NCBI RefSeq assembly: GCF_003334255.1
Contig: NZ_QOWU01000048.1
DNA: 43,440 nt
Reading direction: 5' to 3' (one strand)
Origin: Escherichia coli
GTDB taxonomy: Bacteria; Pseudomonadota; Gammaproteobacteria; Enterobacterales; Enterobacteriaceae
Shown: piece by piece, positions 1-40,509 of the stretch
Numbering within the stretch: position 1 is the stretch's first letter
Layout of the letters: each line of letters opens with the position of its first letter
The notes under the pieces: generated by a model
The model's input: only the letters and a program-made list of their open reading frames with translations
Databases searched by the model: none
What the model was told of the DNA's origin: nothing
Position numbers and translations under genes: made by a program

Positions 1-50
1 AGCTGATAGAAACAGAAGCCACTGGAGCACCTCAAAAACACCATCATACA

Positions 51-1978: not shown

Positions 1979-1979
1979 G

Positions 1980-2237: not shown

Positions 2238-2329
2238 TCTTCACCTCCATAAAAGTTATATTTAAATATAACATCCACTAAAAAAACACACCAGGCTTTA
2301 ACGCACAATGTTTAATAAAAATATAACTT

Positions 2330-2983
2330 TCAACCAAACAGTAAACCCAGCGTGGTTGCTTCCATATGCAGCAATACCGGCAGCAGCAGGCCACCACTTC
2401 TGATCCTGGCCACTGATGTAATCAACCCCACCAGGAACAGTTCTGCCAGTGTCAGCAGGTTCTGATACTGGCTGTGCGCGGCGACGAACAACAACGACGT
2501 TATCAGCGCCCCCAGCCACATCGTCCAGCAGTACCGTGAACGGAAGACGTTCAGCATAATCCCCCGGAACAGCGTTTCCTCATTCAACGGGGCAAGGATA
2601 AAGATGGTCAGCAACGTCAGGATCACGTCAGGTATGGACTTATCGGCAAAAAGTTTCGTCATAAATGGCTCAGCAGGCAGAGCCAGCGCCTTACCGAGCA
2701 GAAATACACCGACATACACCACGGCCATCGCACCGACCAGCCACGGTACGCCAACGTTGCGCAGCTGACCAACGACCGGTAGCGGAGCTATCCAACGGCG
2801 GTATACCAGGAAAACACACAGCAGGTACATCAGAACAGTACCATGACTGAAGAACAAATAGTTTTTTCCTGATCCATAAAGCAGAACGGCCTGCTCCATG
2901 ACAAATCTGGCTCCCCAACTAATGCCCCATGCAGCCAGCATAACCAGCATAAACTGCAGATATTGATTACGTGTTTGAATCAT
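2330..2983 (-). CDS. CPBP-family intramembrane metalloprotease (CAAX protease/Abi-like), 217 aa
   Basis: Multi-pass hydrophobic protein with the CPBP motifs 'EETLFRG' (EExxxR) and 'FVAAHS' (FxxxH). ATG at 2983. Confidence 0.65.
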   Translation of the reverse strand: MIQTRNQYLQFMLVMLAAWGISWGARFVMEQAVLLYGSGKNYLFFSHGTVLMYLLCVFLVYRRWIAPLPVVGQLRNVGVPWLVGAMAVVYVGVFLLGKALALPAEPFMTKLFADKSIPDVILTLLTIFILAPLNEETLFRGIMLNVFRSRYCWTMWLGALITSLLFVAAHSQYQNLLTLAELFLVGLITSVARIRSGGLLLPVLLHMEATTLGLLFG

Positions 2984-3599
2984 TGCATCGCCTGTAAATT
3001 TTTAACTTGTCCTATTTTTGTCATTACCACGTATATACACATGTATAACAATTCAGATATCGTTACCAGGATATGCCGCATCAGCGGCATGGAAGGCGGC
3101 ACTCTGTTGTTTCATATGATACAGGAGTAAAACCGCCGAAGCCCGGCGTAAGCCGGTACTGATTGATAGATTTCACCTTACCCATCCCCAGCCCTGCCAG
3201 ACCATACCCGCTTTCAGCCATGAGAGAGCTTCTGTGCGCGGTCGGAGTGGTCCCGACGAGGGTTTACCCGAAGTCGGGGCGTATCTCCGCGTTAGCGGGC
3301 CGTGAGGGCCGCTTACGAGCGTGTACTGAGAACTTCCAGCGAGAAGACTGACAGCGATGAAGATGTAGTTACAACATTCATAATTAAAAGCGACTCTGTT
3401 CCGGCCCTTTGGGCCGGGGCGGGGCCGCTTTTCAGTTATGAGGGAGGGGCTTTGTGGTTTCGGTTCTGCGCTGGACCGGGGTTTTTCTGGAGGTTGTTTT
3501 TGTGTGTTGTAACTAAAGTGGCTCCGGTCGGGGCCCGCCGCTTGCGGTGGGAGGTGCATATCTGTCTGTCCACAGGACAGGCAGTGAATAGGTTTTCTT

Positions 3600-3920
3600 T
3601 TTAAATGAATGTAATTAAGTAGTTTAAAGGAGATATAAACAGGTGTTTAAAAGATACATTGCACCCTGTAAGACTGGCGGCTGGCGCTTTATGACATGAA
3701 CGGTTGTAACCTTATGGGGAAGTCCCTTGCAGTTAAATGTGGATAAGCAAAATTCCCCGTCGCTGAGGCGTATTTTGTATTAAAAACAGGGGGAATCGGA
3801 TGCTCCAGAAGGTGGATGATGAGATTGTTTTTTGCATGCGACGCTGTTTTTTTGTGCACCGGCGGGCTTCAGGCGTGCGGATGCCTCCGGCGCAGGCCGG
3901 ATTATTCTGAGGAGATCACT
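3600..3920. other. RepFIIA vegetative origin region (oriR) downstream of repA1
   Basis: AT-rich block directly 3' of repA1 containing a DnaA box (TGTGGATAA, complement of TTATCCACA) at about 3749-3757. Position matches the known IncFII replicon layout. Confidence 0.5.
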
Positions 3921-3921
3921 T

Positions 3922-4779
3922 TCAGGGAGAAGCTGTGGCCAGCCGGCTGTAATTGCGGTTACGTGACAGAATCATGCGCTCCTTCACACGACGCTCCACT
4001 TCGCGTTTTACCGCCTCACCATTAGCAGTGAAGCGTCCTTCCGAGATTTCACGCGTCAGCTGCCGTTTCACCAGGGTGACGATATCCTGACGTTCTCTGT
4101 TCGCATCACGACGCGCACGGGCACGTTTTATTCCACGGGACTTAAGCTCTGTCTGGTAACTGCGGAAACGCTCACGCACAAAACGCCAGGCTTTCGCTAT
4201 CAGCTCATCCATACCCAGGGTATCCAGCCCCTGCTTTTTGCGCTGTTTGTTTTCCCATTCAACACGACTGCGGCGCGCAGCTGCCACTGCATCCTCAGAC
4301 ACATCAAGGGCAGCAAACAGAGCCAGTGTGAACGTGATGTCGGTCGGAATGTAGCACCCGATAAGCGGGTCATATTCCGTCTGGTAGGTAATCAGTCCCA
4401 GCTCTGACAGGAACGTCAGGGCCCGGGTGGCACGGGTGATGGAGAGTTTTCCTGCACCGGACTCTGTCGCCAGTCCGCACTCAATGGCCAGTGTGGTGAT
4501 GGAACACTGGACGCGGTTGGCCAGCGGGTCATAGTGGAAACACAGCCCCTGCAGCAGCGCATCAATAGCCCGTCGACGCAGCACCGGTGGCATGCGCCGA
4601 CGCAGACCACGGGAACGGGCATGCGCCACATGAATGGCGAAATCAAAACGGGAGGTGAAGCCCACCGCCTTTTCCATCAGTTTTTCGCAGAACTTCAGCG
4701 TTCCGGCACCTTCACGGGGAGTGAACACCGGATTCGGGTTCTTTACCTGGCGGTAATACGTTTGGTGAAGATCAGTCAC
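3922..4779 (-). CDS. repA1: RepA1 replication initiator (IncFII/RepFIIA), 285 aa, GTG start
   Basis: Protein (V/M)[36 protein letters not shown]... matches R100/R1 RepA1 over its full length. GTG start at 4779..4777 is preceded by AGGA and overlapped by the tap stop codon. ORF-track start at 4791 is an over-extension. Confidence 0.9.
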
Positions 4780-4846
4780 ACCATCCTGCACTTACAATGC
4801 GCAGAAGGAGCGAGCACAGAAAGAAGTCTTGAACTTTTCCGGGCAT
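4772..4846 (-). CDS. tap: tap (repA6) leader peptide, 24 aa, translationally coupled to repA1
   Basis: Minus-strand translation from the ATG at 4846: [24 protein letters not shown], which matches the R1/R100 Tap peptide as I recall it. Its TGA lies just 3' of the repA1 GTG. Confidence 0.75.
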
Positions 4847-4869
4847 ATAACTATACTCCCCGCATAGCT

Positions 4870-4956
4870 GAATTGTTGGCTATACGGTTTAAGTGGGCCC
4901 CGGTAATCTTTTCGTACTCGCCAAAGTTGAAGAAGATTATCGGGGTTTTTGCTTTT
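4870..4956 (+). ncRNA. copA: CopA antisense RNA (copy-number control), approximate bounds
   Basis: Lies on the strand opposite the repA leader, between copB and tap. Imperfect long hairpin (CCCCGGTAATCTT...AAGATTATCGGGG) followed by TTTTTGCTTTT at about 4898-4956, as expected for the CopA terminator stem-loop. 5' end not determined. Confidence 0.5.
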
Positions 4957-5070
4957 CTGGCTCCTGTAAATCCACATCAGAACCAGTTCCTTGCCACCTT
5001 ACGGCGTGGCCAGCCACAAAATTCCTTAAACGATCAGTAATCTAGCATGCTACGCCACAAAGTAAAGTCT

Positions 5071-5331
5071 TTACTTTAGTATATCCAGTCTCTGCAGTTC
5101 ATCTTTGATGATTTTCTCAACGAACTGAGCCTGTGTTATCCCCTCTCTCTCGCAGTACTCAACCATGAGATCTTTCAGAGGATTTTTGACAAAAACTTTT
5201 ATCTCTTTGTGTGTAAGACGTTTTCTTGCAACAGCGGCCATTTGTTTCTCAGAGTCAGTCATAGGCTTACCTCTGCGCACAAACCGCTTTTGACTCAATG
5301 AGGAAGTCACTGCATTTTCTGTCTGCGACAT
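5071..5331 (-). CDS. repA2: RepA2/CopB transcriptional repressor of repA, 86 aa
   Basis: [39 protein letters not shown]... matches CopB. ATG at 5331 with a GAGGAGG RBS upstream. Confidence 0.9.
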
Positions 5332-5494
5332 CTCGCCTCCTCAATACTCAAACAGGGATCGTTTCGCAGAGGATACTACAGTTTTTTGAAATCAGCGACT
5401 TGAGAATTGTGACGAAGATCTGTGTTGGCGCACAAATCAACGGGGATTACTGTCGTTTAATGTGATTTAAACTGTGAAATAGTATGGTTTTCAG

Positions 5495-5577
5495 TTATGG
5501 AAACGCCGGGAGCGGGGAAAACTTGCTTTTTCCCGTTTCCGGGGTTGGACAACTGAGCAACGCGAAGGCGTCAGCTA
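5495..5577. repeat. Copy 1 of an ~80 bp hairpin-containing repeat (second copy at about 17475-17552)
   Basis: Shared blocks 'GGAAACGCCGGG' and 'CCGGGGTTGGACAAC.GAGCAA.GCGA.GGCGTCAG' flank a copy-specific hairpin. Lies between the DUF2726-like gene and repA2. Confidence 0.5.
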
Positions 5578-7015: not shown

Positions 7016-7472
7016 TATAAAATCACGACTTAATACGGAAAAAACTCTGTGCTACTCAGAACTGTCCGGTCATACTTCCCGACCGGATATTAAAAAAAGC
7101 AAATCTCATGCATTATTCAGCCTTCTGAATCCCTGGAGTAATGAAGGCTGCTTTTTCGTTACACCCTTCCCCGGCAGCGCCGGTGGCAGTGTTCAGCCCT
7201 TTTTCGGGCAAACTGCTGCCAGTCTGTCCGGGGAGCAGACTGCGCAGCCCGTAGCCATGCCTCAGCGGCTCCCGGCCAGTCCCCCCTGACTTCCAGCCGG
7301 ACAGCCCGGCGTCCGACCTGCCGGTAGCGCCATACCCCGGAGTTTTGCGAATCACGCCCTGTTCCGTTCATTTTCCTTCCCCCTTTAATCCAGGCCGGTG
7401 AATGTGTTATAAATTTTTATAACCTTCTTCTGCCGGGTATGGAAGAAGGTTTCAGAGAAGCCTTATTTTTCC

Positions 7473-7504
7473 GCCTCCTTTAGTGTGAAGGAGGCTTTTT
7501 TATT
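7473..7504 (+). terminator. Intrinsic-terminator-like hairpin (GCCTCCTT-N8-AGGAGGC followed by TTTTTTATT) at the finO 3' end
   Basis: Perfect 7-8 bp GC-rich stem followed by a T-run on the plus strand. Overlaps the finO stop codon. May terminate plus-strand read-through or act bidirectionally. Confidence 0.4.
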
Positions 7505-8060
7505 GTTCATCAAGCACGGCCTGAAGTTCTGCCTTTATCCGGTTCTGGCGGCGGATTTTATCCAGACGCTCTGCCGCATACACTTCTTCCTCCTGAGAAA
7601 TATGCTCCGTCACATACCCTTCCGTGTCATACCGGCAGGCACCGGCTTTCATGGCACACAGATAGCTTTCTGAACGGGTGATGGCCTTCAGCGCCCTGCG
7701 CAGTTTTTTATGCGAGAGCGGGATATTCCGCTGCGCCACGTCTTCCAGTAACACGTCCCGGATACCGCAGGCCAGAAGTCGGGGTGTGTCACCGTCAAAT
7801 AATCCCGGCCACCAGGGTTTCAGGGTGTTCACGGCCTCATCCAGCGAGGGCAGGTTCAGATAAATGGACAGCGCCTGTCTGGCCTGCGCTTTTTTTGCTG
7901 TCAGCTCTGCTTCCCGGGCAGCCTTCTCCGCCAGTTTCTGCTTTTTCACCTTCCATTTTGGTGGCGTGGTGACATTGATGATGGTTTTCCGGCTCCGGGT
8001 CGGTGTTTCCCCTTCCGTTTTCCGTTTCAGTGTCAGTACCGGTCGTTTCTGCTCTGTCAT
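7500..8060 (-). CDS. finO: FinO fertility-inhibition RNA chaperone, 186 aa (intact)
   Basis: [25 protein letters not shown]... with a Lys/Arg-rich N-terminus matches FinO. Full length, with no IS interruption. Confidence 0.9.
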
Positions 8061-9081: not shown

Positions 9082-9828
9082 TCACAACGCCAGAACGCCC
9101 AGCACAGCCAGATGACAGGCGTAGAATACCGGGAAAAAATCCCCGGGCCAGAAACGGGGTAATGATTTTCCTGCACACGACACCAGACCAACGGTCAGCA
9201 CCGTCATTACAAGACCGGCCACCGCCGCTGCATCACTGGAGGCAAGGTTAAGTGCCGGAATAACGGCCAGCAGGCATGCAAGCAGCGCCAGACGTTCCGC
9301 TCTGTCTTCCGCCCGGTACAGTCGGTAACTGACCGCCAGCATCAGCAGCCCGGCAATGCCGTAACTGGTGCCGGACAAAGGCCCCCACAGGGCCATCAGA
9401 AGAATGGCCGCTGCTGTACGCCACCCACTGCGCGTTTCACACCACGTCAGCACCTGTGCCGCCACTGCAAAGGCAAACAGGATATTCCCCTCATACCAGG
9501 GAAAGCCGGCCAGATAATATGCGAACTGGGCAATAATTCCCCATCCCCACAGCCGGTTAATGGCCGGTTGCCGGATATGCGCATGACGGGACAGATTCAG
9601 CCCCCACACCAGGGCAAACAGCGGAAAGGCTCCTCGCCCGGCCAGAAACATCCATTCCTGCTTCAGCTGGAATATCAGATTGATGTGGTCCAGTACCATC
9701 AGCACCAGCGCCACCGTTTTGATGATATCCCGCTGTCCGGGTGACCAGACCAGAAACGACTGCAACCAGGTATCGGTCCGTGCAGCCAGTGAATCGTTAC
9801 GTGTCGTGTTCGTGTTATCCGTTGTCAT
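9082..9828 (-). CDS. traX: TraX F-pilin N-acetylase, 248 aa
   Basis: MTTDNTNTTRNDSLAARTDTWLQSFLVWSPGQRD... polytopic membrane protein matching F TraX. Start trimmed to the ATG at 9828, just 3' of the traI stop. ORF-track start at 10293 overlaps traI and is rejected. Confidence 0.85.
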   Translation of the reverse strand: MTTDNTNTTRNDSLAARTDTWLQSFLVWSPGQRDIIKTVALVLMVLDHINLIFQLKQEWMFLAGRGAFPLFALVWGLNLSRHAHIRQPAINRLWGWGIIAQFAYYLAGFPWYEGNILFAFAVAAQVLTWCETRSGWRTAAAILLMALWGPLSGTSYGIAGLLMLAVSYRLYRAEDRAERLALLACLLAVIPALNLASSDAAAVAGLVMTVLTVGLVSCAGKSLPRFWPGDFFPVFYACHLAVLGVLAL

Positions 9829-9847: not shown

Positions 9848-12800
9848 TCAGTCTCCGCCCAGGGTTTTCTCTTTCTGCAGGTCACGAACCATATCCCGCT
9901 CCATCTGCTGCAGACGCTCCTGCAGCAGATTTTCCCGGGCAACCTCCCGGACCGCTTCCCGCTCCCGTTGTGATTCACGCAGCACACTCTCCGGCAGTGC
10001 GGTTTCCCGTTCAGATATGGCAGACCGGTCACGCTCCTGTCCGGCAATATCCCTGACAGCCAGCTCTGTTTTGCCGTCCGGCAGGTCAGGTTTGTTCTCT
10101 GCCATTTTCCTGACAATTTCATCTGCGCGGCGTTCCGTTTCACGGCGGATGGCCTCTTCAGCCTGCCGCTGTGCCAGTACCTCTGCCGTGACCGGTTCGC
10201 CATTTCCGGCACCCGGCTGGACGCTGTTGTCCGGGATATCCCCCCACACGCGGCCACCGGTGATGGCACCGGGATTCCACGGGCGACCTTCACCGGCGAT
10301 TCTTACCACCACACCACTGTCAGGATTATCACGGGCAATCCGGACGCCATCCTGCATATTATCAGCCAGCAGGCTCTCTCCGTTACGGCTGCCCTGCAGG
10401 GCCACGAACTGCGCATCCCCGCTGCCTTTCACCCGTCCTTCACCACTGAATCCCCGCAGCCCGTTTCCGTCATCCGTGGTCAGTGGGTTCAGCCAGATAC
10501 CAGCTGACTTGCCGTTACGGTCAAACGCCGGCAGTGCCACATGCGGCTGCGGATATTTACGTCCCGGTGCAATAAACCGTGCAGGGCTGTCTCCCCCGGC
10601 CAGCCCTGCCTGACGGAGAACGGCACGGCCTGCCGCCACGTCCCGCAGTTCCCGTGCCGTACTGAACAGCCGCTGCGCATTCATGACCTCCCGGTCCGGT
10701 TTCGGCTCCAGCACATCGTGGGCAGTTCCTTTCTGTACGGCATTGTTAATGGCATCCGTCCAGCCCTGACGGTTATCGGTGTACACCTGCACATGCTGCT
10801 TCATACGCGACAGGGCCACGTAGGCTGACTCAAAGCCGGCCATCAGTTTCCGGTTACCTTCCGTGCCTTCAAGCGCGATGGCAAAGGTTTCACTCGCCCC
10901 CTGCGCACCGTGGGCGGTGATGGCATAAGCCAGGTCAATATGTTGCTCTGCCCGCTCCTGGCCGGGGCGAATCACCCGGGTCTGCTGTCCGTCTGACAGC
11001 GTGACACTGTCACCGGAAACCGCTGTCACCGTCCAGACGCTGTTGGCCACATAACCGCGCTCCCGGTCACTCTTCGTGAAGCGCATCCGGTCGCCGGTCC
11101 CCACCCGGATTTTGTCCGGGGTGTACAGTGTGACACCTTCAGCCACCGCCTCCCGGGGCGAAATCAGCCGCGTGTTACCTTCCGCATCCTCCAGGGTTAT
11201 CAGCCCGTCATCCTTGCTGATACCGGCAATCCGGTGATACACACTATCCACCAGGGCAAGGGCATCCGGGTTATTCTCCCAGGTGGAGAGACGACGCAGC
11301 TCCCCGTCACGTATATTCGCTGTGTTCAGGACAGGCACCATGACCTGCTCTTTCCCCAGCTCACCGGCCTTTTCCCGTGCATCATGAATCATGCTGTTCA
11401 GTACGCGCCGGTCCTCATTCAGGTGCGTGACAATCAGCGTCTGCTCCCGTGCTTCCGGTGTCCTGCCGGTATAGTCGCGGACAATGGCTTCATACAGTGT
11501 CATGGGGACATCCGGAAAAGTCTCACCTTTCAGCATCGCCTTCTGCTGCGCTTCTGCCAGTTTCGCTTCCTGGCTGTGACTGAACTCCGTCACGGAGTGC
11601 TCCGGTGCCCATGCGCCCTCCTGACGGGGAACCTGAGACGGTTTCACACTCTCAAGCCCGGACAGTGCCCTTTCCACATCCCGGTTAATCAGGCTGTATA
11701 CCGCCTCCCGCAGTTCCGGCGTCTGACGCACAATCTCCTTCATGATGACCACATCGGCAGCACTGCGCGTCTGCTGGAGACGGAAAGGCTGACCGGGCGC
11801 GATGGCCTGCAGCTGGTCCGTGTCACCACTGGCCACGGCACGACCGCCACCGGCCGCAATCAGGGCGTATGCCCGTGCCATGTCGGTATTGCCCACCATT
11901 GAGCTCTCATCGAGCAGGAACAGCGTGTTGCTGAAATCCGGCGTTTCTCCGCTGCGCTGCTGCAGCTGCGTGTCATGCAGAAAGGACGCCAGCGTCTGTG
12001 CATCCACGCCGGCGCTGCGCATCTCACCGACCGCACGGTGCGTGGGCCCCAGCCCCACAACTCGGGGACGCTCACTCGCCGGCAGCATGTTCACGGCTGA
12101 CATCACCGCCCGGAACTGTGTGGTCTTACCCACCCCGGCATACCCCTGCACCACCGTGAAACGGTCGGACGTTTCCAGTATCATGCGGGTGGCGGCACGC
12201 TGTCCTGATGTCAGTTTCTCCATGAGTTCGCCAGGTACTCTCTCCATCAGCGGCGTGACCGCCTCCTTACCTTCGAGAATATGGCGAAGAATACTTTTTT
12301 CTGCCTCATACGACGCACGGGAAACCAGCAGGCCTGTGCCATAGCCTTTTGCCACATCCACATACAGTAAGTCACCGCGTTTTATCTGCGCATTGATTTC
12401 CCCTCCCAGTTCAGTAAAACCGGTTCCTTCTGCAGCAAACGACTTCGCCTCTGTCAGCAGGTCCACCATGCTGAAGGCCAGGTTTTTACTTTCCAGCACA
12501 GGAAGGGCCAGATGAATGGCCTGCTGTGCCGGCGTGTGCAGCCCGGTTTTCTGCAGACTGATAGCGGTTTCCAGCGATGTCTCACCGGCCCGCGCCTTTA
12601 TCTGCTCAGAAACCACCGTAAAGGAGGGATGGCGGGCAAGTTTTTCCGCAGTACGGGTTTCATCCAGTGAGGAATACAGCCGGACATCACGACCGCTGCG
12701 GGCCAGACCGTTCAGGGTGGCGTTGTCCATTGCCATCTGTGTGACGGAGGCAAACACCGTCGCACTGTCACTGACGGAATGCCCGGGCGTTTCCACCCAG

Positions 12801-18318: not shown

Positions 18319-18331
18319 CCAAAATATCCTT

Positions 18332-18841
18332 TTAACTAACAGACTCTTTTTTGAACAGTCCTATTACTGAGGCTATAGCTGAGAGATTATAACGATTTAT
18401 ATCTATGGTATACACCAAGAAAAATAATATGAATGTAATCATTAGTGCAAAAACATATAAGATAGAATGCATAAACGAAACCATAGAAAAAACAATCAAA
18501 AACAACAAAATATATGTCTTACTCTTAGAATACATAAAATTTATTATTTTTGAATCCTTTCTGAAACTATCAGGAATCGCAAGGTATAACATCATTCCAT
18601 TTGTAATAGCCACAAAAAGCAGGAACCCCATCATTCCACTAGCACATATATCAAAGCCAACATCCCTGACATCACTTTTAACCGATACTAAACGCAGAAA
18701 AGTTGGCCATAATAAAACCCATAAAAACACATAAGTTCCCGGCTTTATGACTTGTAATAATGATGGGATATTAACACCCTCTACAGAGAGTACCTCCTTT
18801 AGTTTTTGCATCTCCATTTTTATATCATAGTGAGTGATCAT
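18332..18841 (-). CDS. traS: TraS-like inner-membrane entry-exclusion protein, 169 aa
   Basis: Syntenic position between traG and traT. Very hydrophobic and AT-rich, as is typical of the hypervariable traS. Called from synteny and composition, not from sequence identity. Confidence 0.6.
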
Positions 18842-21663
18842 AATGGCCCCTTCAATCGTTCTTTCTTATCATCCACCATCTGTTTTAACGCATCTTCAGA
18901 CGGTGTTGGCATTAATTTCTGTCGTTTATTTTCTTCATTATATCTGTTGTTTTGTTGAATTTCTTCCTGTTTGTGATTATTTTTTAACTCTGAATATTGT
19001 CTGTCTACAATATTTTCTTCGCCATGAATACTATTCTGAGTATCTCCGATATTCCCTTTATATTCTGTGACCATATTATCAACCTGATGTTTTACATCAT
19101 TACGGATATTACTGTCCTGCGTTCTTTGATCAATAATGGCCTGATGCCCCTGATGGTCAGCAATAATATCCTGGCTGCCACCACCCGAAGGTACGCTCTC
19201 CATTCCTTTACCAATATCCCCACGGGATTCACGCCAGGCATTATCAACACCAGGCTGCACCTGTTCCTGAACAAAAGACCATGCCATCGCCCGACGGCGT
19301 TCTGCAATCTCCGGTGAACTGGTGTTTGTCAGAATAGCTTCGGCATCCTGCGGTGCGTGTTTCATCACATACTGTGCAAACTGTTGCGACAAATCTTCGC
19401 TCATCTGCCCACTCATGCTTTCAGTACGGGATGCCATTTCAGCATATTCATGGCTGCGGGTCATATTCGTCGTGTACTGGTCGTAACTCTGTTTCGCTGA
19501 GTTCAGGGCTGCAGACAACTGGTCCACGCGGGAATCGGCATTATTGTCAGTATGGCTGCCGGATTCACTGACTTTGCGACTGGTAAAGTAATCGCTGGCC
19601 TCTTTAAAGTCCTTACTGGCTTTAGCATCGATATCATGGCGAGCATCATGGGTAGCCCTGCTGCCACTACTTGCTGAATGTGAGTCATCATCCGTTGCAT
19701 CCAGGCTCCCCTTAAATCCACCTCTGATGCCTACCCCACCACCAACACCAAGAATTTTAGGTTTAACCCCCCATTCAGCATGAGCATCAGCATACATTCC
19801 ACCAGATAGCCTGGTACTTGTTGATGCCAGTTCCTGAGTCGCCTGCTCATTACTGATATTATGCGCCTTCGCATAGCTTTCCACTGCACTGCGCATACGG
19901 CTGGCCATCATGGAGTCCTGAGCACTCATCGTGCTGTCAGCACCACCGGTGACAGAATCACTGCTCCCCCGGTTAGAACCAAACTGACTGAGCGTGTTCC
20001 AGGCACTGGCAATACTGCTGCTGAACCCATGCAGGGCACTTTCTGCTCTGTTCGATGCTTCCCGGGCCATTTCCTGTTGTGCCGCCGCAATCTGACGCGT
20101 TGCATTGATACCGACCGGTAAACGGGACATCGCCCCGCTCGCATCCATCACCATATTACCGTCACGGGTCTGTGTGGCGGTTGCGCCACTGCCGGTCTGG
20201 TACATCATCTGACCAAACGACGTGGTGCTGTTGGTGCTCCAGCTGAAGCCGTTAACGTTCTCCGTCTGCATGTTGCCGTAGGAGTAATTACCGTCAACCA
20301 CACTGCCTGCTGCACTGGCGGTCGGGCTGATAGCAGAGGAAGCGAAATGGCTGTACACACTGGAAAATCCTGCCCCGAGCCCCCTGACCATCATCCAGGA
20401 TAATGGCGGGATCATCATGGAAAGATACCCGGCAGTGGAAGCCAGATCGGAGTATTTCAGCTGTATCTGTGAAATTTCCGAGAGCACCACCGGTGCACCA
20501 TTCTGCTTTGCATAAAATGTCATGGCGCTGTTCAGAATGGCGTACAACATTGGCCATGACTGCAACCACATCAGGGCAAACACATAGCCTTTCAGGACGG
20601 ACAGCGTCAGTTTGTTGAAGACAGCCGCCAGTACCAGGAGCGGGAAAATACCGATGGCGATCCCCGTCAGGATGGTCTGCGTCATGGGCAGTGTCCGCAT
20701 CGCCACATGACCGATGGAGACATGTGCCAGACGTTGCTTCTCCATCGATGATGTGGTGGCCAGATTCACCAGGCTGGCCGAATCACCATTACGTGCGGCA
20801 TAACTGGTGATCCCCTCCTTCAGCGCATTGATGGTGACATTCTGGCGGATGATCTGGCTGGCTGATTTACTTGAGCCATAGAAGTAACTGTAACTGTCGC
20901 CAATCAGCGTACTGAACAACAGGTTCGGATCAGGGCGTCCACCAAATAGCTGCTGGGCATAATAATGCCATGTTTTTCCGCCACTCTGTGTGTCCAGATT
21001 CAGCTTGTCTTTCAGCGAAACCGACGCGTCCTTACAGGTCACGAAATTATTATTGCTGTCATAAACGCCCCGCAGCGGACTGGGGCGGGAAAAAATCAGC
21101 GTGTAAGGATCAGCGGAGGCCATCAGTTCCTCCAGCGTGTATTTGTGGTTCAGGTAAATATCCCCCATCACGCAGTTCTGCACATAATCCTGGAAAAGAT
21201 TGGCGATTTCCGGATTACGGGACAAAAAGTCGGTGCTTTTTGATACCAGTTCTGCGCCAAACAGCATCCCCGTTTTGCTGTAGGTGACACTGTCCGGTTG
21301 CGTGAAGATCATCTCGTAACTGGCCACCATTGCATGCCCGATACGGGTCGTCAGTGAAAGTGGCATCGCCAGTCCGACCGGCACATTATCCACCCGGTGA
21401 ACTTTGACCAGGTCACTGTTATCAATAATCTGCACCGATGTGCGGACATTAACCAGCAGGCTGATAAGCACAAACACGGCCACCCAGCCCAGCAAATCCA
21501 TCACGTTGTGCCGCTGTACCCACATTACGGCCACCGCGAGAACAGACAATGTGAGCGCAATTTTTTCAATGGAATCCCACGTCCGGGTCCCCATAAAAGC
21601 GGCAATGGCATTCAGGTTATTCCGCAACCACTCACCACCGGCAATCACATAAACTTCATTCAC
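18838..21663 (-). CDS. traG: TraG mating-pair stabilisation/pilus assembly/entry exclusion protein, 941 aa
   Basis: Size, N-terminal polytopic region and large periplasmic C-terminal domain match F TraG (938 aa). Syntenic with traH and traS. Confidence 0.9.
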   Translation of the reverse strand: MNEVYVIAGGEWLRNNLNAIAAFMGTRTWDSIEKIALTLSVLAVAVMWVQRHNVMDLLGWVAVFVLISLLVNVRTSVQIIDNSDLVKVHRVDNVPVGLAMPLSLTTRIGHAMVASYEMIFTQPDSVTYSKTGMLFGAELVSKSTDFLSRNPEIANLFQDYVQNCVMGDIYLNHKYTLEELMASADPYTLIFSRPSPLRGVYDSNNNFVTCKDASVSLKDKLNLDTQSGGKTWHYYAQQLFGGRPDPNLLFSTLIGDSYSYFYGSSKSASQIIRQNVTINALKEGITSYAARNGDSASLVNLATTSSMEKQRLAHVSIGHVAMRTLPMTQTILTGIAIGIFPLLVLAAVFNKLTLSVLKGYVFALMWLQSWPMLYAILNSAMTFYAKQNGAPVVLSEISQIQLKYSDLASTAGYLSMMIPPLSWMMVRGLGAGFSSVYSHFASSAISPTASAAGSVVDGNYSYGNMQTENVNGFSWSTNSTTSFGQMMYQTGSGATATQTRDGNMVMDASGAMSRLPVGINATRQIAAAQQEMAREASNRAESALHGFSSSIASAWNTLSQFGSNRGSSDSVTGGADSTMSAQDSMMASRMRSAVESYAKAHNISNEQATQELASTSTRLSGGMYADAHAEWGVKPKILGVGGGVGIRGGFKGSLDATDDDSHSASSGSRATHDARHDIDAKASKDFKEASDYFTSRKVSESGSHTDNNADSRVDQLSAALNSAKQSYDQYTTNMTRSHEYAEMASRTESMSGQMSEDLSQQFAQYVMKHAPQDAEAILTNTSSPEIAERRRAMAWSFVQEQVQPGVDNAWRESRGDIGKGMESVPSGGGSQDIIADHQGHQAIIDQRTQDSNIRNDVKHQVDNMVTEYKGNIGDTQNSIHGEENIVDRQYSELKNNHKQEEIQQNNRYNEENKRQKLMPTPSEDALKQMVDDKKERLKGPL

Positions 21664-23335: not shown

Positions 23336-23870
23336 CTTTTTTTCCTCCGTACATCTGCAGAACGGTATCCATCCGCGCCATAAAACCGGCGGCATCCGTT
23401 GCCCCCTGTAAAAGCGGTAATGCCTCAAGCGTGTTGACGTTGACCAGGAAGGTGGTCGGTGTGGCCACCGGGATATTCGGGAAGAAGGTCTGCATCACGT
23501 CCGGTGGCACCGGTAATGCTTCCGGAAAGGCGGTATCCCCCTGACCATCCAGGGTGTAGGGAAAAACGGAAAAGCCGTACTGCTGTGCCAACTGCTTCAG
23601 TACCGGGTCAAACTGGTGACAGTAAGGGCAATGCCCCTGCATAAACAGCACCACCTTCCAGTCGGCCAGGTTAACCTGCCTGCCGTTGCTGAGGCGGAAC
23701 CAGCGGGGAGCCGGCTTTTCTGTCCTGGCTGATGTGTCTGCTGCCGGTTGTGCAGGCTGCGCGGCCATGCCCTGCGGATTCCAGAGTCGTTCAATTTCAT
23801 CCCGGGTGGAGGCCTGCACGGCAGCGGCTGCCAGCAACAGGGTGAACAACAGTGATTTAATGAGAGACAT
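23325..23870 (-). CDS. trbB: TrbB periplasmic thioredoxin-fold disulfide isomerase, 181 aa
   Basis: Signal peptide plus CxxC active site 'GHCPYCHQ'. Size matches F TrbB. Confidence 0.85.
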   Translation of the reverse strand: MSLIKSLLFTLLLAAAAVQASTRDEIERLWNPQGMAAQPAQPAADTSARTEKPAPRWFRLSNGRQVNLADWKVVLFMQGHCPYCHQFDPVLKQLAQQYGFSVFPYTLDGQGDTAFPEALPVPPDVMQTFFPNIPVATPTTFLVNVNTLEALPLLQGATDAAGFMARMDTVLQMYGGKKGAK

Positions 23871-24141
23871 GTCTGCCCTCCTGCTGCCCTTCCATCATGG
23901 CCTGTTGCCTGGCTTCCAGTGCCTCACGCTCTTCCCGGCTGACACGGGCAATCCATGCATCCAGCACCTGGTATGCGCCGAATAGCACAAGGATGGCCGC
24001 AATCAACTCCGCCAGAAAAAAAGCCATCCAGGGTTTGCTGTAAACAAGACGGGCGACGATATGAAACCAGACACCCAGGGAAAATACCCACATTCCCGTA
24101 ATATCAAGCCGGGGTAAAGAGAATCTGCGTTTACTTATCAT
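23857..24141 (-). CDS. traQ: TraQ pilin chaperone, 94 aa
   Basis: Size, position and hydrophobic central segment match F TraQ. Confidence 0.8.
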   Translation of the reverse strand: MISKRRFSLPRLDITGMWVFSLGVWFHIVARLVYSKPWMAFFLAELIAAILVLFGAYQVLDAWIARVSREEREALEARQQAMMEGQQEGRHVSH

Positions 24142-28086: not shown

Positions 28087-28113
28087 GATATATCCTGATG
28101 GCATTGTTACAAT

Positions 28114-28566
28114 TTAATTACCCGTAGGGTTTTCTCTCAATTTTTCTGCCAGTTTTAAAAAAGCATCAAACTCTTTCTGACCTGCGCATATTTTACTGGC
28201 TGTAATCGACACGGTTATTCCTGATGTGTTATTGGCAGAGTCTTTAATATCATTATTATGGACGGAGACATTATCGGGACTGAAAATATAAACTTTTTCT
28301 CTGGGATAATCCCTGTCCACATCCTCCCGCCACTGAATCTGTTCTTTATCAAAACGGTGATACATTATTGAGGAAAACCGGCACAACCAGTCGTCAATAC
28401 ATGACAGCTTATCCAGTAATTGTTGCGAATGACGGACCTCACAGGCAAGCTGCCGACACTCCATAATGCACCGTGACACACCACCATTTGCATTCACAAG
28501 CGCTTTCATCTCCAGCAGAACACCCATATCAAGTATTCTGGAGCCATATTTTATATTATTACTCAT
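28114..28566 (-). CDS. Hypothetical protein, 150 aa (distal gene of the AT-rich insertion in the tra operon)
   Basis: ATG at 28566 preceded by a GGAGG RBS at 5-nt spacing. About 38% GC against about 55-60% in flanking traU/trbC. No motif recognised. Several Cys (CIMECRQLAC, SCIDDWLC). Confidence 0.55.
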   Translation of the reverse strand: MSNNIKYGSRILDMGVLLEMKALVNANGGVSRCIMECRQLACEVRHSQQLLDKLSCIDDWLCRFSSIMYHRFDKEQIQWREDVDRDYPREKVYIFSPDNVSVHNNDIKDSANNTSGITVSITASKICAGQKEFDAFLKLAEKLRENPTGN

Positions 28567-28595
28567 TACACCCTCCTCTGTTTTTGTTTACACAT

Positions 28596-29057
28596 TTACC
28601 TGGCATAAATATTATCTGTATTACGATGCCTTGATGGCGTATAAACATTGCAACTCCTTTCTCTGTCAGAATTGAAGGACAATGCAATAACACCATCAAA
28701 CAACAGTTCGATAAACTCAGACTCACATGAGTCTGCAACCACAACCAGGCGTTTATGATATTTTCTGGCCTGTTTAATTAACCTGATAACTTTTGATGTC
28801 ATTTTCTTTTCACACAGCCTGACTCCATCAAGGATTAACGTCTTTTCAGGTGTATTCAGAAAATCAAAATTATCAATATTTTCATCACAAAGCCGGTTGT
28901 ACCCCGCAGAGTTAAGAGTTTTAAAGTTGTAATACCGGGAATCACTATCACTGATTCTTATTTCAGTCAGGAGAGTTGACTTGCCGGTATCTTCTTCCCC
29001 CTTAATCAGAATGCGGTCTTTAAAGTTCAGCATTAATTCTGTTGCCTGTTTATACAT
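28596..29057 (-). CDS. Small P-loop NTPase-like protein, 153 aa (proximal gene of the AT-rich insertion)
   Basis: Walker A-like 'GEEDTGKST' near the N-terminus and candidate Walker B 'TLILDG' / 'RLVVVADSCE'. ATG at 29057 with an AAGGA RBS, 25 nt after the traU stop. ORF-track start at 29096 overlaps traU and is rejected. Confidence 0.55.
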   Translation of the reverse strand: MYKQATELMLNFKDRILIKGEEDTGKSTLLTEIRISDSDSRYYNFKTLNSAGYNRLCDENIDNFDFLNTPEKTLILDGVRLCEKKMTSKVIRLIKQARKYHKRLVVVADSCESEFIELLFDGVIALSFNSDRERSCNVYTPSRHRNTDNIYAR

Positions 29058-29082
29058 AAAAAATCCTTCAGAATTAGTAGTT

Positions 29083-30075
29083 TTACAGGAAGACACAGTT
29101 ACGTTTACGCCACATCAGGTAGCCGAAGTTTTTCTTTGTATTGGGCGGATTTTTCCCGGTTTCCCAGCGGGTCACACTGCGCCCGAACGGATGGCACTGT
29201 CCGCTGTCCGGGTACATATTCACCATCTGGTAACGCCAGCGTTCTTTGGGCAGGATTGGGGACGGATATTCATTACAGACGGCGTTATTTTTCCCGATGG
29301 TTTCCATAATCATGCCCTGACGGTGCAGCTTGAACGCCATGCGTTCACTGACCAGCAGGGAGGACTGCAACGGACTGGACTCATTACTCACCCAGCCATT
29401 GAACGGGTACATACTGCCCTGCGAACCGGCACACCAGAACAGAACATCGAGAGGCATATTAAAGGCGCTGGCAATGGCATCTGCTGCACAGGCCCCCTGT
29501 GCTATCGGATTGGCAAAGATGACAGCTTCCGGATTGAGAATGGTGGTCAGGCTGCTGTCCGTCCAGGTGGGGTCGATTTCAGAAAGATAAGCGATATCCA
29601 GGTCACCACCTTCCAGACAGCCCAGCGATGTGATGATGTTAAGCCAGTACGTCAGCGGGTATTTGTACCAGTGAACGTGATAGAACGCCCCGTTCACCTG
29701 CTTCTCATCCTTTTTCGCCGTTCCCTGTGCCGTTTTACCAAAAGCCGGCAGGCTGAAGCCCAGGTTAACCATGCATCCCGGTGATCGGGTGACGTCCGTC
29801 AGCGCCATCGGCTCCCAGTAACCAATGGCCAGCCCGATACGCCTGAACAGCGGCGGCGGTGCCGGACAAATCTGAATGGGCATCGACGGGTTCGCCGTGT
29901 CGGGGACCTTACCCTGACTGACTTTGATACTGCCCAGCGAGAGCGGGAAAATACAGCTCCAGCAGATATCCGTGATCGGGTTTACAAAACGCCCCTCACA
30001 GGCAGAATCCGCAGACGCTGCAGGGACATGACCGGCGAGAAGGAATAACATCAGCAGCCACAGGCTTCGCTTCAT
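29083..30075 (-). CDS. traU: TraU pilus assembly/DNA transfer protein, 330 aa
   Basis: Signal peptide (MKRSLWLLMLFLLAGHVPAASA), 330 aa, Cys/Trp-rich as in F TraU. Confidence 0.9.
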   Translation of the reverse strand: MKRSLWLLMLFLLAGHVPAASADSACEGRFVNPITDICWSCIFPLSLGSIKVSQGKVPDTANPSMPIQICPAPPPLFRRIGLAIGYWEPMALTDVTRSPGCMVNLGFSLPAFGKTAQGTAKKDEKQVNGAFYHVHWYKYPLTYWLNIITSLGCLEGGDLDIAYLSEIDPTWTDSSLTTILNPEAVIFANPIAQGACAADAIASAFNMPLDVLFWCAGSQGSMYPFNGWVSNESSPLQSSLLVSERMAFKLHRQGMIMETIGKNNAVCNEYPSPILPKERWRYQMVNMYPDSGQCHPFGRSVTRWETGKNPPNTKKNFGYLMWRKRNCVFL

Positions 30076-37290: not shown

Positions 37291-38018
37291 CAGTTGCCCT
37301 CCCCGTCACGGATGACATACACATCCATGCGCGCACCTGCCAGTAACTGGCTGGCAGGCTGGCTGAACATCACGGCACGGGTTCCCGGCTGCCAGAAGTC
37401 ACTTTCCCGGATATTCAGGGCAGACAGCGTTTTATTTTCCACGGCAAAGCGGACCATCTTCAGGTGATTCCCCGTCCATACGGCATCTGCCACTGAAGAC
37501 AGCCCCGCCGGGGCCTGCAGGGTTTCCTTTGTCACTGGGACCTGATACCAGCCTGCGGGTAATTTTCCGCCACGGACAGCCTGGCTGATGGTCACAAGCA
37601 GGGATTCGTAAGGCGTGGACGTTTCCCACGCTCCGGCTTCTTCTCCGGTTCCGCGCAGGTCACTGACCAGCTGAATGGTACGCCCCGCGCCTTCACGGGG
37701 AACGGCCTGAATGGAAAGATTCAGACCACGTTCTGTTTCCAGAATGAACGTAAAGGGCTTTTTGTTGACGGTGGCAACCACCACACCGCCGGAGGCGGTC
37801 TGCTCATTATTGGTCAGGGCACCATCCAGACTGTTCACGGCGATAATCCGGTCACCGGGAACGGTAAACAGATTCGGGCTGGTATTGCTGATGGCAATAC
37901 TGGCCTGACCACCGTTCACCATTGGCACCACGGTGGGGGCCAGCGTACCGTTTGCGGCCATCACGCTGCAGGAAAAAAACAGGCTGCCGAATATTATTGC
38001 CGTATTATTTTTTCTCAT
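37290..38018 (-). CDS. traK: TraK (VirB9/secretin-like) periplasmic protein, 242 aa
   Basis: Signal peptide, 242 aa, position between traE and traB. Confidence 0.9.
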
Positions 38019-38571
38019 CGTCTGTTTCCCCGAAATTATCCAGCCAGGTCACCCCGTTTTCCCGCTTCAGAATAAGGATGTAATGTTTGATATCAGTGAA
38101 AGGTTTTGAATCACCAATCCAGGTTTTAAGCACACCTCGAATTTCCACACGGCCATACTGAGGCCAGACACGAACACTGGTCTGGAAAAAGGCTGAGTTC
38201 ACGTTATCGTTTTTAATACGCTTCGCTTCTTCAGCCAGAATAACTTTCATCTGGTTCTGTGCACCCGGGCGGATATATTGCAGAAGCGCCTGATGTGAGG
38301 CATCGACGGTTTCTGATGAAACATTCAGACGGAGGGCAATAAATGACAGCGCCATCTGCTGTAAATAAGAGGCGTCGGCACTGTTCTGTGACACGGCAAA
38401 GGGGGCATTAAATGCCATTGGCGTCACGGCAGTGCGTTGCTCATTCTGAAGACGGTAGTTATTCACCCCCTGAATGACGTTAACAGAGAGGCTGAGAACA
38501 ATAAGCACTGACATAAATATAAAGGCGATGGCCATTACACGACTGGTACTTAAACGGGCACCGTGTTCCAT
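38005..38571 (-). CDS. traE: TraE (VirB5/8-like) inner-membrane protein, 188 aa
   Basis: 188 aa with N-terminal transmembrane anchor, as in F TraE. Confidence 0.9.
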
Positions 38572-38592
38572 ATAACAATCCTGGTATCAGTT

Positions 38593-38904
38593 CTATTTAA
38601 TCCACTGCCGGAAACACGAATCGGGAACATTATGAAAAATACCGCGCAGCAGGGCTGTTGGCATATACCAGTAAATCAGGTCACGTAACCAGGAACTGCC
38701 CCGCCCTTTTTTCAGTTTTTTAATCCCGAAATAAACCAGAACCGCTGCACCAATACCGAACAGATATTTCGATGTTGTGATACCCCAGCCAATACAGATT
38801 GCTGCGGGGATCAGTTCATCCAGTGGCAGGCCAAACCAGCGGCTCTGGTTGGTCAGTGTTTCCGGGAAACGATATTTCTTAAGTTTATTCTCGTCTCCCG
38901 ACAT
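38593..38904 (-). CDS. traL: TraL (VirB3-like) membrane protein, 103 aa
   Basis: [41 protein letters not shown]... in the position following traA. Confidence 0.85.
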
Positions 38905-38918
38905 CGTTTTATTTCCTG

Positions 38919-39278
38919 TCAGAGGCCAACGACGGCCATACCCACAGCAATAAATACAGAGATGATGGCAAAACCGGCCAGGAACTTGACGTTTTTGGTC
39001 ATCATGTACATGACCGCACCGACCAGAACTTCAGCCAGAACGACCCATTTAACAACACTGGAGTCCTTACCGAAGGTCGCCTTAACCGTGGTGTTACCGC
39101 TTGCCATCAGGTCCTGGCCCTGTGCTGCCATTGCCAGTTGCGGGAAGAACATCATCAGAACAGCAGCCGGGATCACAGCGCGAGCCAGGCGAAGCATATT
39201 CAGACGAGTGAATTTAGAAAAAAACGACTTCTTTTTGACGGGCGCAGAAGCACCCTGAACACTTAAAACGGCGTCCAT
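38919..39278 (-). CDS. traA: TraA propilin (F-type pilin precursor), 119 aa
   Basis: [51 protein letters not shown] | [33 protein letters not shown]... Long leader and mature pilin match F TraA, but the mature N-terminus is AQGQDL... rather than F-type AGSSGQDL... (a pilin serotype variant). Confidence 0.9.
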
Positions 39279-39311
39279 ATGATTCCTCTGTTTAATATTG
39301 ATAGATAAAAA

Positions 39312-39539
39312 CTAAAGTTCTTTAAATGTTGACTCGCTCTCTTCGGTCACCTCCCTGAATATTTCTTCGTTATAGAAATCAGGAAATCGTTTCAGATGAT
39401 CTCTGAGACGGATCTGGACTTCTATCGTTTTACTTCTTCCACTACGATCTTTGGCCTTAATAAGTCGGTTATTTGTATCTTCATCGAGATACACCGAGAC
39501 CGTTCTGCTTATACCGCCTCTCGCGTTACGCCTCCTCAC
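39312..39539 (-). CDS. traY: TraY ribbon-helix-helix oriT-binding protein, 75 aa
   Basis: 75 aa, basic, R100-type TraY-like sequence (MRRRNARGGISRTVSVYLDEDTNNRLIKAKDRSGRSKTIEV...). Confidence 0.85.
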   Translation of the reverse strand: MRRRNARGGISRTVSVYLDEDTNNRLIKAKDRSGRSKTIEVQIRLRDHLKRFPDFYNEEIFREVTEESESTFKEL

Positions 39540-39632
39540 TCAATTCACCTCTGTTTCCCGACTAATAAAATTATGATTGCACAGAAACCGACGAAAAAAA
39601 ACACGCCAAAATTGGCGTGTCTTATTTAACAT

Positions 39633-40319
39633 TTACTTAACGCTATAAAATTCACGAATTATATTTAATAGCGAATCTATTTCCCCTTTATAGATACATG
39701 ACACTCTGAATAAATCAAAGTGTTCAAAAAATTCTTTTATTTTCCGTTTAACTGGTTTAATTCGATCCTCAGATGCTCTGTCTGTAATACCCAATTCTCT
39801 GGCAATTGTTGCATGACCAACACCCAGCATATAAAAAGAGAAAACAAGCAATGTCCCGGGGGAAAGATCATTCCATATCGTTAATTTGTCAGAAGTATTT
39901 GTATTACTTCCACTCTGATTTAACGCAAAAAATGGATAATCAGGAAACGGATTAATTTGCCATAAAACAACAGATTCGTCATTATAAAAAGAAACATTCT
40001 CCATCCTTATCTGATAGATTTCGCCATGAAAATTAAAACGACGACAAAATGCAGAGCCATGTCCAAGAGCCTGGCATTCCAGTTCAAGTGATGAAAGAAA
40101 AATTTCAACCTGCAGACGTATATAACTCTCTCCGGATAAGGGTTTATCTTCTCTGGAAAAGAGTTCAATAAAAGCCCCATTGGCATAAAGGATTTTCCGG
40201 TTTTTGTTACGGACACAAACCGGAACGGGAGAATTTCTGTAGATATTCTGAACGTTAAGGATGTATTTATTTACAGATTGACTGTTAAGTGGCCTTTCTC
40301 TACGATCCAGCGCACACAT
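39633..40319 (-). CDS. traJ: TraJ transcriptional activator of the tra operon, about 228 aa
   Basis: Start trimmed to the ATG at 40319 ([14 protein letters not shown]...), which has a GGAGG RBS at 5-nt spacing. C-terminal helix-turn-helix-like segment '[20 protein letters not shown]'. ORF-track start at 40379 runs into the finP/leader region. Confidence 0.8.
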
Positions 40320-40395
40320 AGGAACCTCCGTTAAGGATTCTATGGACAGTCGATGCAGGGAGGTCTGAACTCCCTGCATCGGCGATTTTCAGTTT
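40320..40395 (+). ncRNA. finP: FinP antisense RNA (approximate), complementary to the traJ leader
   Basis: Plus-strand perfect hairpin CGATGCAGGGAG-gtctgaa-CTCCCTGCATCG at about 40350-40381, followed by GCGATTTTC. Overlies the traJ RBS region on the opposite strand. Ends not mapped. Confidence 0.45.
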
Positions 40396-40509
40396 CAATT
40401 TTTAACGTGGCATTAACCACGTAATTAATATACTAATTATCTGACGTATTGTCATCTTTTTGAATCATAAAAATTCTTATATTTGAACCAACTCAAACTT
40501 CATTTTCAT

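What the first reader, a model, noticed from the sequence alone, without database searches (positions are those of the whole stretch)
38919..39278. Pilin with a variant mature N-terminus
The propilin leader is F-like, but the predicted mature N-terminus is [10 protein letters not shown]... rather than F-type [12 protein letters not shown].... The N-terminal residues of F-like pilins determine serotype and sensitivity to some pilus-specific phages.
Basis: partly seen in the sequence, partly recalled or inferred. Interest (0 to 1): 0.25.

Follow-up and report, generated by a model that had tools for sequence, protein, structure and literature searches.

The report
Common non-F type conjugative pilin
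This is the pilin gene (traA) of an ordinary F-like E. coli plasmid; its short N-terminal tail (AQGQ instead of F's AGSSGQ) is real, but it is a long-catalogued, very common natural pilin type, not a new variant.

Summary
Window 38919..39278 (- strand) encodes a 119-aa TraA propilin. Its 51-aa leader matches F at 50 of 51 positions. The predicted mature N-terminus is [10 protein letters not shown], against [12 protein letters not shown] in F and AGKGDLMAKG in R100. The rest of the mature protein is 100% identical to F pilin, including every residue modelled in the solved F-pilus structures.

It is not novel. The exact protein (WP_000340272.1) is on record on at least 1000 contigs. The window is collinear at 99.9% or better with plasmid 39R861-3 of the E. 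coli size-marker strain 39R861. The mature sequence equals Swiss-Prot PIL6_ECOLX. The 91-nt DNA across the cleavage site and tail matches perfectly in 562 records of complete E. coli genomes, against 768 for the F-type and 287 for the R100-type.

By my recollection of Frost et al. 1985 this is the ColB2-like (group II) pilin. I could not check that plasmid name with the tools.

The changed residues lie in the flexible, surface-exposed N-terminal tail. That tail is unresolved in apo F pili and possibly contacts the MS2 maturation protein. The likely effects are a change of serotype and at most a modest change in phage binding. The maturation genes traQ and traX are intact. Interest is low.

The parts
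38919..39278 (-). traA, F-type conjugative propilin, 119 aa (stop codon 38919..38921)
   Evidence: ORF list. NCBIfam NF010294 231.6 bits (cutoff 150) and TIGR02758 129.2 bits (cutoff 76.55). Pfam PF05513 221 bits. 98% identical to F TraA.
39126..39278 (-). Coding region of the 51-aa propilin leader, ending in Ala-Met-Ala (the leader-peptidase site)
   Evidence: Identical to the F leader except N2D. Cleavage before Ala52 in F is stated in PMC7555446. Cleavage here is inferred from identity.
39114..39125 (-). Codons GCA CAG GGC CAG for the variant mature N-terminal tail Ala-Gln-Gly-Gln (F: Ala-Gly-Ser-Ser-Gly-Gln; R100: Ala-Gly-Lys-Gly)
   Evidence: Read. In the DNA alignment this is the only indel-bearing, multi-substitution patch in the gene. 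11 differences from F fall in the 30 alignment columns at 39100..39123.
38922..39113 (-). Rest of the mature pilin (QDLMASG...VVGL region), 100% identical to F pilin
   Evidence: Residues 55-119 are identical to the modelled chains of PDB 5LER/5LFB/6NM5. Residue 55, the Gln just before DLMASG, is also counted in the tail part above.
39285..39289 (-). AGAGG ribosome-binding site of traA
   Evidence: Read directly from the sequence. Function inferred.
23857..24141 (-). traQ, pilin chaperone needed for propilin insertion and processing
   Evidence: NCBIfam TIGR02741 179.4 bits (cutoff 111.6). Annotated traQ at the collinear position in NZ_MK092064.1.
9082..9828 (-). traX, pilin N-terminal acetylase
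   Evidence: NCBIfam NF010260 542.7 bits (cutoff 419). Annotated traX at the collinear position in NZ_MK092064.1.
39312..39539 (-). traY, the gene upstream of traA (75-aa type)
   Evidence: NCBIfam NF010302 178 bits (cutoff 147).
38593..38904 (-). traL, the gene downstream of traA
   Evidence: ORF. The twin plasmid's annotated TraL (WP_000012106.1) has the same protein accession as F TraL.

Best explanation
The feature is traA, the structural gene for the conjugative pilus subunit of an F-like (MOBF/MPF_F, IncFII-replicon) E. coli plasmid essentially identical to 39R861-3. The 119-aa propilin is inserted into the inner membrane with the help of TraQ. Host leader peptidase cuts it after Ala-Met-Ala51, and TraX acetylates the new N-terminal Ala. 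This gives a 68-residue pilin, [12 protein letters not shown]...VVGL, which the Tra type IV secretion machinery polymerises with phospholipid into the F-like pilus. The only difference from F pilin in the mature protein is the tail, AQG in place of AGSSG before the shared QDLMASG. This tail is the flexible, surface-exposed N-terminus that is not resolved in apo F-pilus structures. The allele is one of the classical natural pilin types. Its mature sequence equals Swiss-Prot PIL6_ECOLX, and by my recollection of Frost et al. 1985 it is the ColB2-like group II: ColB2-type N-terminus with an F-type C-terminus. The expected consequence is a different dominant surface epitope (serotype), with the pilus core and the known RNA-phage contact residues unchanged. 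Shown here: the sequence, family membership, synteny, the presence of traQ and traX, identity to the solved F pilin core, and prevalence. Inferred: the cleavage site, acetylation, surface exposure of this particular tail, and the serological effect.
For: Sequence and alignment. Family HMMs above curated cutoffs. Synteny traY-traA-traL-traE-traK and full tra operon annotation in the collinear plasmid NZ_MK092064.1 (99.93-99.98% identity over the whole window). TraQ, TraX and FinO intact. Residues 55-119 are 100% identical to the F pilin chains of 5LER/5LFB/6NM5, which begin at QDLMASG. PMC6635492 says AGSSG is flexible and unresolved in the apo pilus, that density reaches a Mat pocket in the MS2 complex, and that Asp7, Ala18 and Asp23 are interface residues. 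All three are conserved here. Maturation pathway (TraQ, LepB, TraX acetylation at A52): PMC7555446 and PMC7690428. Five natural pilin types (F, ColB2, R1-19, R100-1, pED208): PMC3245843. Prevalence: the exact protein is on at least 1000 contigs. 619 of the 5000 best-scoring plasmid records are at least 99% identical. The junction matches perfectly in 562 complete-genome E. coli records, against 768 for the F-type and 287 for the R100-type. The N2 leader variant with the identical mature pilin is UniRef representative PIL6_ECOLX, and the AQGQ form with a C-terminal Lys is PIL4_ECOLX.
Against: Nothing contradicts the identification. Three limits remain. The assignment of the AQGQ tail to plasmid ColB2 (and of PIL4 to R1-19) rests on my memory of Finlay et al. 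1984 and Frost et al. 1985, which the paper library does not hold. Cleavage, acetylation, piliation and serology are not observable in silico. FinO and FinP are intact, so pilus expression is probably repressed in most cells.
Confidence: 0.95

Rival explanations
1. It is a new pilin serotype or phage-escape variant not previously described.
For: It differs from F and from R100 at the tail. The open-access papers searched contain no text with this peptide.
Against: The exact protein has a RefSeq multispecies accession and is on at least 1000 contigs. The identical mature sequence is in a Swiss-Prot-named entry, PIL6_ECOLX. The junction matches perfectly in 562 complete-genome E. coli records. 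PMC3245843 already lists a ColB2 type distinct from F.
Confidence: 0.01
2. It is the R1-19-like pilin type (AQGQ tail plus an altered C-terminus) rather than the ColB2-like type.
For: The tail is the same as in PIL4_ECOLX and in many plasmids whose TraA ends in ...VVGLK. Like PIL4, the window has Asp at leader position 2.
Against: The window protein ends ...GMAVVGL followed by a stop, exactly as in F, with no extra Lys. That PIL4 is the R1-19 pilin is my recollection, not a tool result.
Confidence: 0.03
3. The tail difference is a sequencing or assembly artefact (a local indel error) in an otherwise F-type traA.
For: The patch involves a net 6-nt length difference in a G/C-rich run.
Against: The reading frame is intact and the change is several substitutions plus an in-frame 6-nt difference. 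The same 91 nt recur perfectly in 562 independent complete-genome E. coli records.
Confidence: 0.005

Closest known systems
F pilin (TraA of plasmid F, Swiss-Prot PIL1_ECOLI; PDB 5LER, 5LFB, 6NM5)
   Same: The 51-aa leader matches at 50 of 51 positions and the cleavage motif is the same. Mature residues from QDLMASG to the C-terminal VVGL are 100% identical. The gene order traY-traA-traL is the same. TraL, TraE and TraK in the twin plasmid carry the same protein accessions as in F.
   Different: The mature tail is AQG in place of AGSSG, so the mature pilin is 68 aa rather than 70. Leader residue 2 is Asp, not Asn. The upstream traY and traJ alleles are unrelated to F's.
Swiss-Prot PIL6_ECOLX (the ColB2-like, group II pilin of Frost et al. 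1985, by my recollection)
   Same: The mature pilin is identical residue for residue.
   Different: Only leader residue 2 differs (Asp here, Asn in PIL6). Which plasmid PIL6 came from could not be checked with the tools.
Swiss-Prot PIL4_ECOLX (AQGQ tail plus C-terminal Lys; the R1-19 type, by my recollection)
   Same: Same AQGQ tail and Asp2 in the leader.
   Different: PIL4 has Phe4 in the leader and an extra C-terminal Lys. The window pilin ends in Leu, as F does.
R100 / R100-1 pilin (Swiss-Prot PIL5_ECOLX)
   Same: Same length (119 aa propilin, 68 aa mature) and same family. 87% identity.
   Different: The tail is AGKGDLMAKGND, and there are further substitutions in both the leader and the mature part (V75I, A101V, A115S in window numbering).

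Membership tests
F-type conjugative pilin TraA (Pfam PF05513; NCBIfam NF010294 / TIGR02758) | Sequence matches the family profiles above their curated thresholds | tested here: met
   NF010294 231.6 bits (cutoff 150) and TIGR02758 129.2 bits (cutoff 76.55). PF05513 221.3 bits, E 2.9e-66.
F-type conjugative pilin TraA (Pfam PF05513; NCBIfam NF010294 / TIGR02758) | Long (about 51 aa) leader ending in Ala-X-Ala, followed by an N-terminal Ala in the mature pilin | tested here: met
   The leader matches F at 50 of 51 positions and reads ...LAMA|AQGQ.
F-type conjugative pilin TraA (Pfam PF05513; NCBIfam NF010294 / TIGR02758) | Mature part has the pilin fold seen in solved F-pilus structures | tested here: met
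   Residues 55-119 are 100% identical to the modelled chains of 5LER/5LFB/6NM5. No separate structure prediction was needed.
F-type conjugative pilin TraA (Pfam PF05513; NCBIfam NF010294 / TIGR02758) | Position between traY and traL at the head of an F-type tra operon, with traQ and traX present | tested here: met
   (TraY, TraQ and TraX are all above their NCBIfam cutoffs).
F-type conjugative pilin TraA (Pfam PF05513; NCBIfam NF010294 / TIGR02758) | Cleavage by leader peptidase, N-acetylation, and assembly into a pilus | not testable with these tools
   Needs pilus purification and mass spectrometry or Edman sequencing.
ColB2-like (group II) pilin type | Mature N-terminus Ala-Gln-Gly-Gln-Asp-Leu-Met | tested here: met
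   The sequence is AQGQDLM and is identical to the mature part of Swiss-Prot-named PIL6_ECOLX. That this is the ColB2 tail comes from memory; the primary papers are not held.
ColB2-like (group II) pilin type | F-type C-terminus (...GMAVVGL, no added residue) | tested here: met
ColB2-like (group II) pilin type | Reacts with anti-ColB2 but not with anti-F N-terminus antibodies | not testable with these tools
   Serology is required.
F (group I) pilin type | Mature N-terminus Ala-Gly-Ser-Ser-Gly-Gln | tested here: not met
   The window has AQGQ.
R1-19-like (group III) pilin type | AQGQ tail together with an altered C-terminus (extra Lys in PIL4_ECOLX) | tested here: not met
   The tail is met but the C-terminal Lys is absent. 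The link between PIL4 and R1-19 is from memory.
R100-1 (group IV) pilin type | Mature N-terminus Ala-Gly-Lys-Gly-Asp-Leu-Met-Ala-Lys | tested here: not met

The most novel reading that the evidence does not exclude
The shorter, Gln-containing tail (AQG instead of AGSSG) changes how the pilin N-terminus docks into the hydrophobic pocket of the MS2/R17 maturation protein proposed by Meng et al. 2019. On this reading the three tail types, which occur at comparable frequency in E. coli plasmids (768, 562 and 287 records), are kept in balance by selection from RNA phages or antibodies and are exchanged by recombination inside traA. The sequence data do not exclude this, but nothing here shows it.
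Probability: 0.2. Interest if true: 0.3.

Novelty: already known. Interest (0 to 1): 0.06.

Why it matters
It matters little as a discovery. The gene is correctly annotated in RefSeq, the mature protein equals a Swiss-Prot entry, and the type has been part of F-like pilus classification since the 1980s. Its practical value is modest. It tells you which pilus serotype this plasmid should make. It also shows that the pilus core and the mapped RNA-phage contact residues are those of F, so F-specific phages should still be usable against hosts carrying it. Finally, because F-type and AQGQ-type pilins differ only in the disordered tail, they form a natural matched pair for testing the proposed role of that tail in MS2 binding.

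Tried and rejected
1. I tried to read the primary pilin-typing papers: Frost et al. 1985 (PMC219321), Frost et al. 1994 (PMC372961) and Anthony et al. 1999 (PMC94017). None is held.
2. Full-text searches for 'AQGQDL', 'Ala-Gln-Gly-Gln', 'ColB2 pilin', and 'ColB2' with 'F pilin' or 'amino terminus' found nothing that gives the ColB2 sequence. The ColB2 label therefore stays a recollection.
3. Plasmid R1 (KY749247) is not in the plasmid collection, and no PMC id could be found for Cox & Schildbach 2017. R1 TraA could not be compared directly. I used exact-sequence look-ups that returned Swiss-Prot mnemonics instead.
4. I considered and rejected a sequencing artefact (the junction recurs perfectly in 562 records), a novel serotype (database identity), and the R1-19 type (no C-terminal Lys).
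5. The 98-aa ORF on the opposite strand (38962..39258, +) lies entirely inside traA. No Rfam family maps there, and I treated it as spurious.
6. I did not run the large homology searches, structure prediction or fold search. The residues modelled in the solved F pilin are 100% identical, which made them unnecessary.

Full report
**1. The observation**

Window 38919..39278 on the minus strand is an ATG-initiated ORF of 119 codons. An AGAGG ribosome-binding site lies 6 nt upstream of the ATG, at 39285..39289. It translates to [51 protein letters not shown]|[68 protein letters not shown].

I fetched the reference genes from the plasmid collection rather than rely on memory: F (NC_002483.1) and R100 (NC_002134.1). 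The protein alignment shows:
- The 51-residue leader differs from F only at position 2 (Asp for Asn).
- The leader-peptidase motif Ala-Met-Ala followed by Ala is preserved.
- After it the window has [11 protein letters not shown] has [12 protein letters not shown] and R100 has AGKGDLMAKG.
- Everything after the tail is identical to F.

The mature pilin would be 68 residues, against 70 in F. The codons for AQGQ are GCA CAG GGC CAG at 39114..39125.

**2. What it is**

The protein passes the curated thresholds of both NCBIfam TraA models: NF010294 at 231.6 bits (cutoff 150) and TIGR02758 at 129.2 bits (cutoff 76.55). It also matches Pfam PF05513. It lies between traY (39312..39539) and traL (38593..38904), at the head of a complete F-type tra operon on the minus strand.

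The whole window is collinear with plasmid 39R861-3 of E. coli strain 39R861 (NZ_MK092064.1; MOBF, MPF_F, with an incFII-family repA). Identity is 99.98% over window 1-5509 and 99.93% over 5510-43440. That record annotates the same gene as traA, WP_000340272.1.

The genes that mature the pilin are intact in the window:
- traQ (chaperone): 23857..24141, 179 bits against a cutoff of 112.
- traX (N-terminal acetylase): 9082..9828, 543 bits against a cutoff of 419.

**3. Where the difference lies and what it probably does**

Window residues 55-119 are 100% identical to the pilin chains deposited for the F pilus (5LER, 5LFB) and for the MS2-F-pilus complex (6NM5). Those chains begin at QDLMASG. The variant residues are therefore exactly the tail that those models lack.

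Meng et al. 2019 (PMC6635492) state the following:
- The first five residues of mature F pilin (AGSSG) are flexible and unresolved in the apo pilus.
- In the phage-bound state, density extends from one pilin N-terminus into a hydrophobic pocket of the MS2 maturation protein.
- Asp7, Asp23 and Ala18 are interface residues, and D23G and A18E give R17-resistant pili.

Those three residues are conserved here, as Asp5, Asp21 and Ala16 of the 68-residue pilin.

The maturation pathway is described for F in PMC7555446 and PMC7690428: TraQ-assisted membrane insertion, cleavage by leader peptidase LepB, and acetylation of Ala52 by TraX. Its application here is an inference from near-identity of the leader and the presence of traQ and traX.

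My reading is that this pilin builds a pilus with the same core as F but a different exposed N-terminal epitope. I expect a different serotype, retained sensitivity to F-specific phages, and at most a quantitative effect on RNA-phage adsorption. The serological role of the acetylated N-terminus is established knowledge that I recall from the Frost/Paranchych laboratory papers of 1984-85. I could not retrieve those papers.

**4. Local pattern of divergence**

At the DNA level, the window and F compare as follows:

| Region | Window coordinates | Differences from F |
|---|---|---|
| Upstream of traA (traY side) | above 39279 | 7-17 per 30 columns |
| Leader region | 39124..39273 | 7 in 150 nt |
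| Tail patch, including a net 6-nt length change | 39100..39123 | 11 in 30 columns |
| traA 3' half, traL, traE and the start of traK | about 39010 down to 37422 | 4 in about 1600 nt |

The tail is thus a sharp local hot-spot inside a conserved gene. A mosaic boundary between an F-identical segment and a non-F regulatory segment falls within or next to traA.

Other natural plasmids carry further tails, AGSQ in pU90-5 and SGSQ in pCFS3273-2, and many carry an extra C-terminal Lys. This supports the view that the two exposed termini are where natural pilins vary.

**5. Comparison with what is known, and novelty**

[quoted passage not shown] Exact-sequence look-ups gave:
- F TraA is UniRef representative PIL1_ECOLI.
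- R100 TraA is PIL5_ECOLX.
- The Asn2 version of the window protein, with an identical mature pilin, is PIL6_ECOLX.
- An AQGQ pilin with an added C-terminal Lys is PIL4_ECOLX.

The window's mature pilin therefore already exists as a curated Swiss-Prot sequence. By my recollection of Frost et al. 1985:
- Group II is ColB2-like.
- Group III is R1-19, with a ColB2-like N-terminus and an altered C-terminus.
- Group IV is R100-1.

On that scheme the window pilin is the ColB2-like group II type. It is not group III, because it lacks the C-terminal Lys. The plasmid names attached to PIL4 and PIL6 are from memory and are not verified.

Prevalence confirms that the allele is ordinary:
- The exact 119-aa protein is on at least 1000 contigs.
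- 619 of the 5000 best-scoring plasmid records are at least 99% identical.
- In 5,426 complete E. coli genomes, the 91-nt junction matches perfectly in 562 records. The F-type junction matches in 768 and the R100-type in 287.

**6. Verdict**

The feature is a well-annotated, very common, long-known pilin type on a known plasmid. Novelty is 'already known' and interest is low (0.06).

The one open and mildly interesting question is whether tail length and composition tune docking to RNA-phage maturation proteins. An isogenic tail swap would test it. I give that reading about 0.2 probability.

Noticed in passing
window 1-43440: The whole window is collinear with plasmid 39R861-3 (NZ_MK092064.1) of the E. 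coli plasmid size-marker strain 39R861: 99.98% identity over 1-5509 and 99.93% over 5510-43440. It includes an incFII-family repA region (about 98% to R100), a CopA RNA at 4864-4954, and the pemI/pemK toxin-antitoxin genes annotated in the collinear twin record (not checked in the window itself).
   Followed up: yes
window 37422-39540: There is a mosaic boundary relative to plasmid F inside or next to traA. The traY side is highly divergent and the traA 5' half mildly so. From about 39010 downstream through traL, traE and the start of traK there are only 4 differences in about 1600 nt. In the twin plasmid, TraL, TraE and TraK carry the same protein accessions as in F, while TraX and FinO carry the same accessions as in R100.
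   Followed up: partly
window 39633-40379 (-): The ORF in the traJ position (248 aa as listed; annotated as a 228-aa 'PAS domain-containing protein' in the twin record) scores only 24.9 bits against the NCBIfam TraJ model (cutoff 349). It is closely similar to the PAS-domain chain of PDB 4EW7 ('Conjugative transfer: regulation'; E 1.2e-65). It has no blastn match to the traJ of F or R100, so it is a distinct traJ allele.
   Followed up: partly
window 7500-8060 (-), 40313-40389 (+), 40314-40422 (-): finO is intact (361 bits against a cutoff of 136), and FinP antisense RNA and the traJ 5' UTR element are both detected by Rfam. The FinOP fertility-inhibition system looks complete, so pilus expression is probably repressed in most cells.
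   Followed up: partly
window 7079-7262 (+), 12193-12269 (+), 20859-20944 (+): Rfam gathering-level hits to three antisense RNA families described from plasmid pHK01: AS-pc02, AS-traI and AS-traG.
   Followed up: no
L007, L008, L010, L011 (traA of pTHO-015-1, CP077246.1, pU90-5, pCFS3273-2): Other natural pilin variants exist: an AQGQ tail with an extra C-terminal Lys, and AGSQ or SGSQ tails with NST in place of NTT plus a C-terminal Lys. Natural variation is concentrated at the two termini of the mature pilin.
   Followed up: partly
window 18319-18992 and 28094-29082: These stretches have no blastn match to R100. The first is the traS region. The second is the two hypothetical ORFs between traU and trbC (28114..28566 and 28596..29096). 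They appear to be allele-specific or accessory segments of the tra region.
   Followed up: no
PDB entry 9moq chain A: A solved structure contains the full-length 121-aa F propilin, leader included. This suggests a recent structure of a pilin maturation intermediate or complex. I did not examine it.
   Followed up: no
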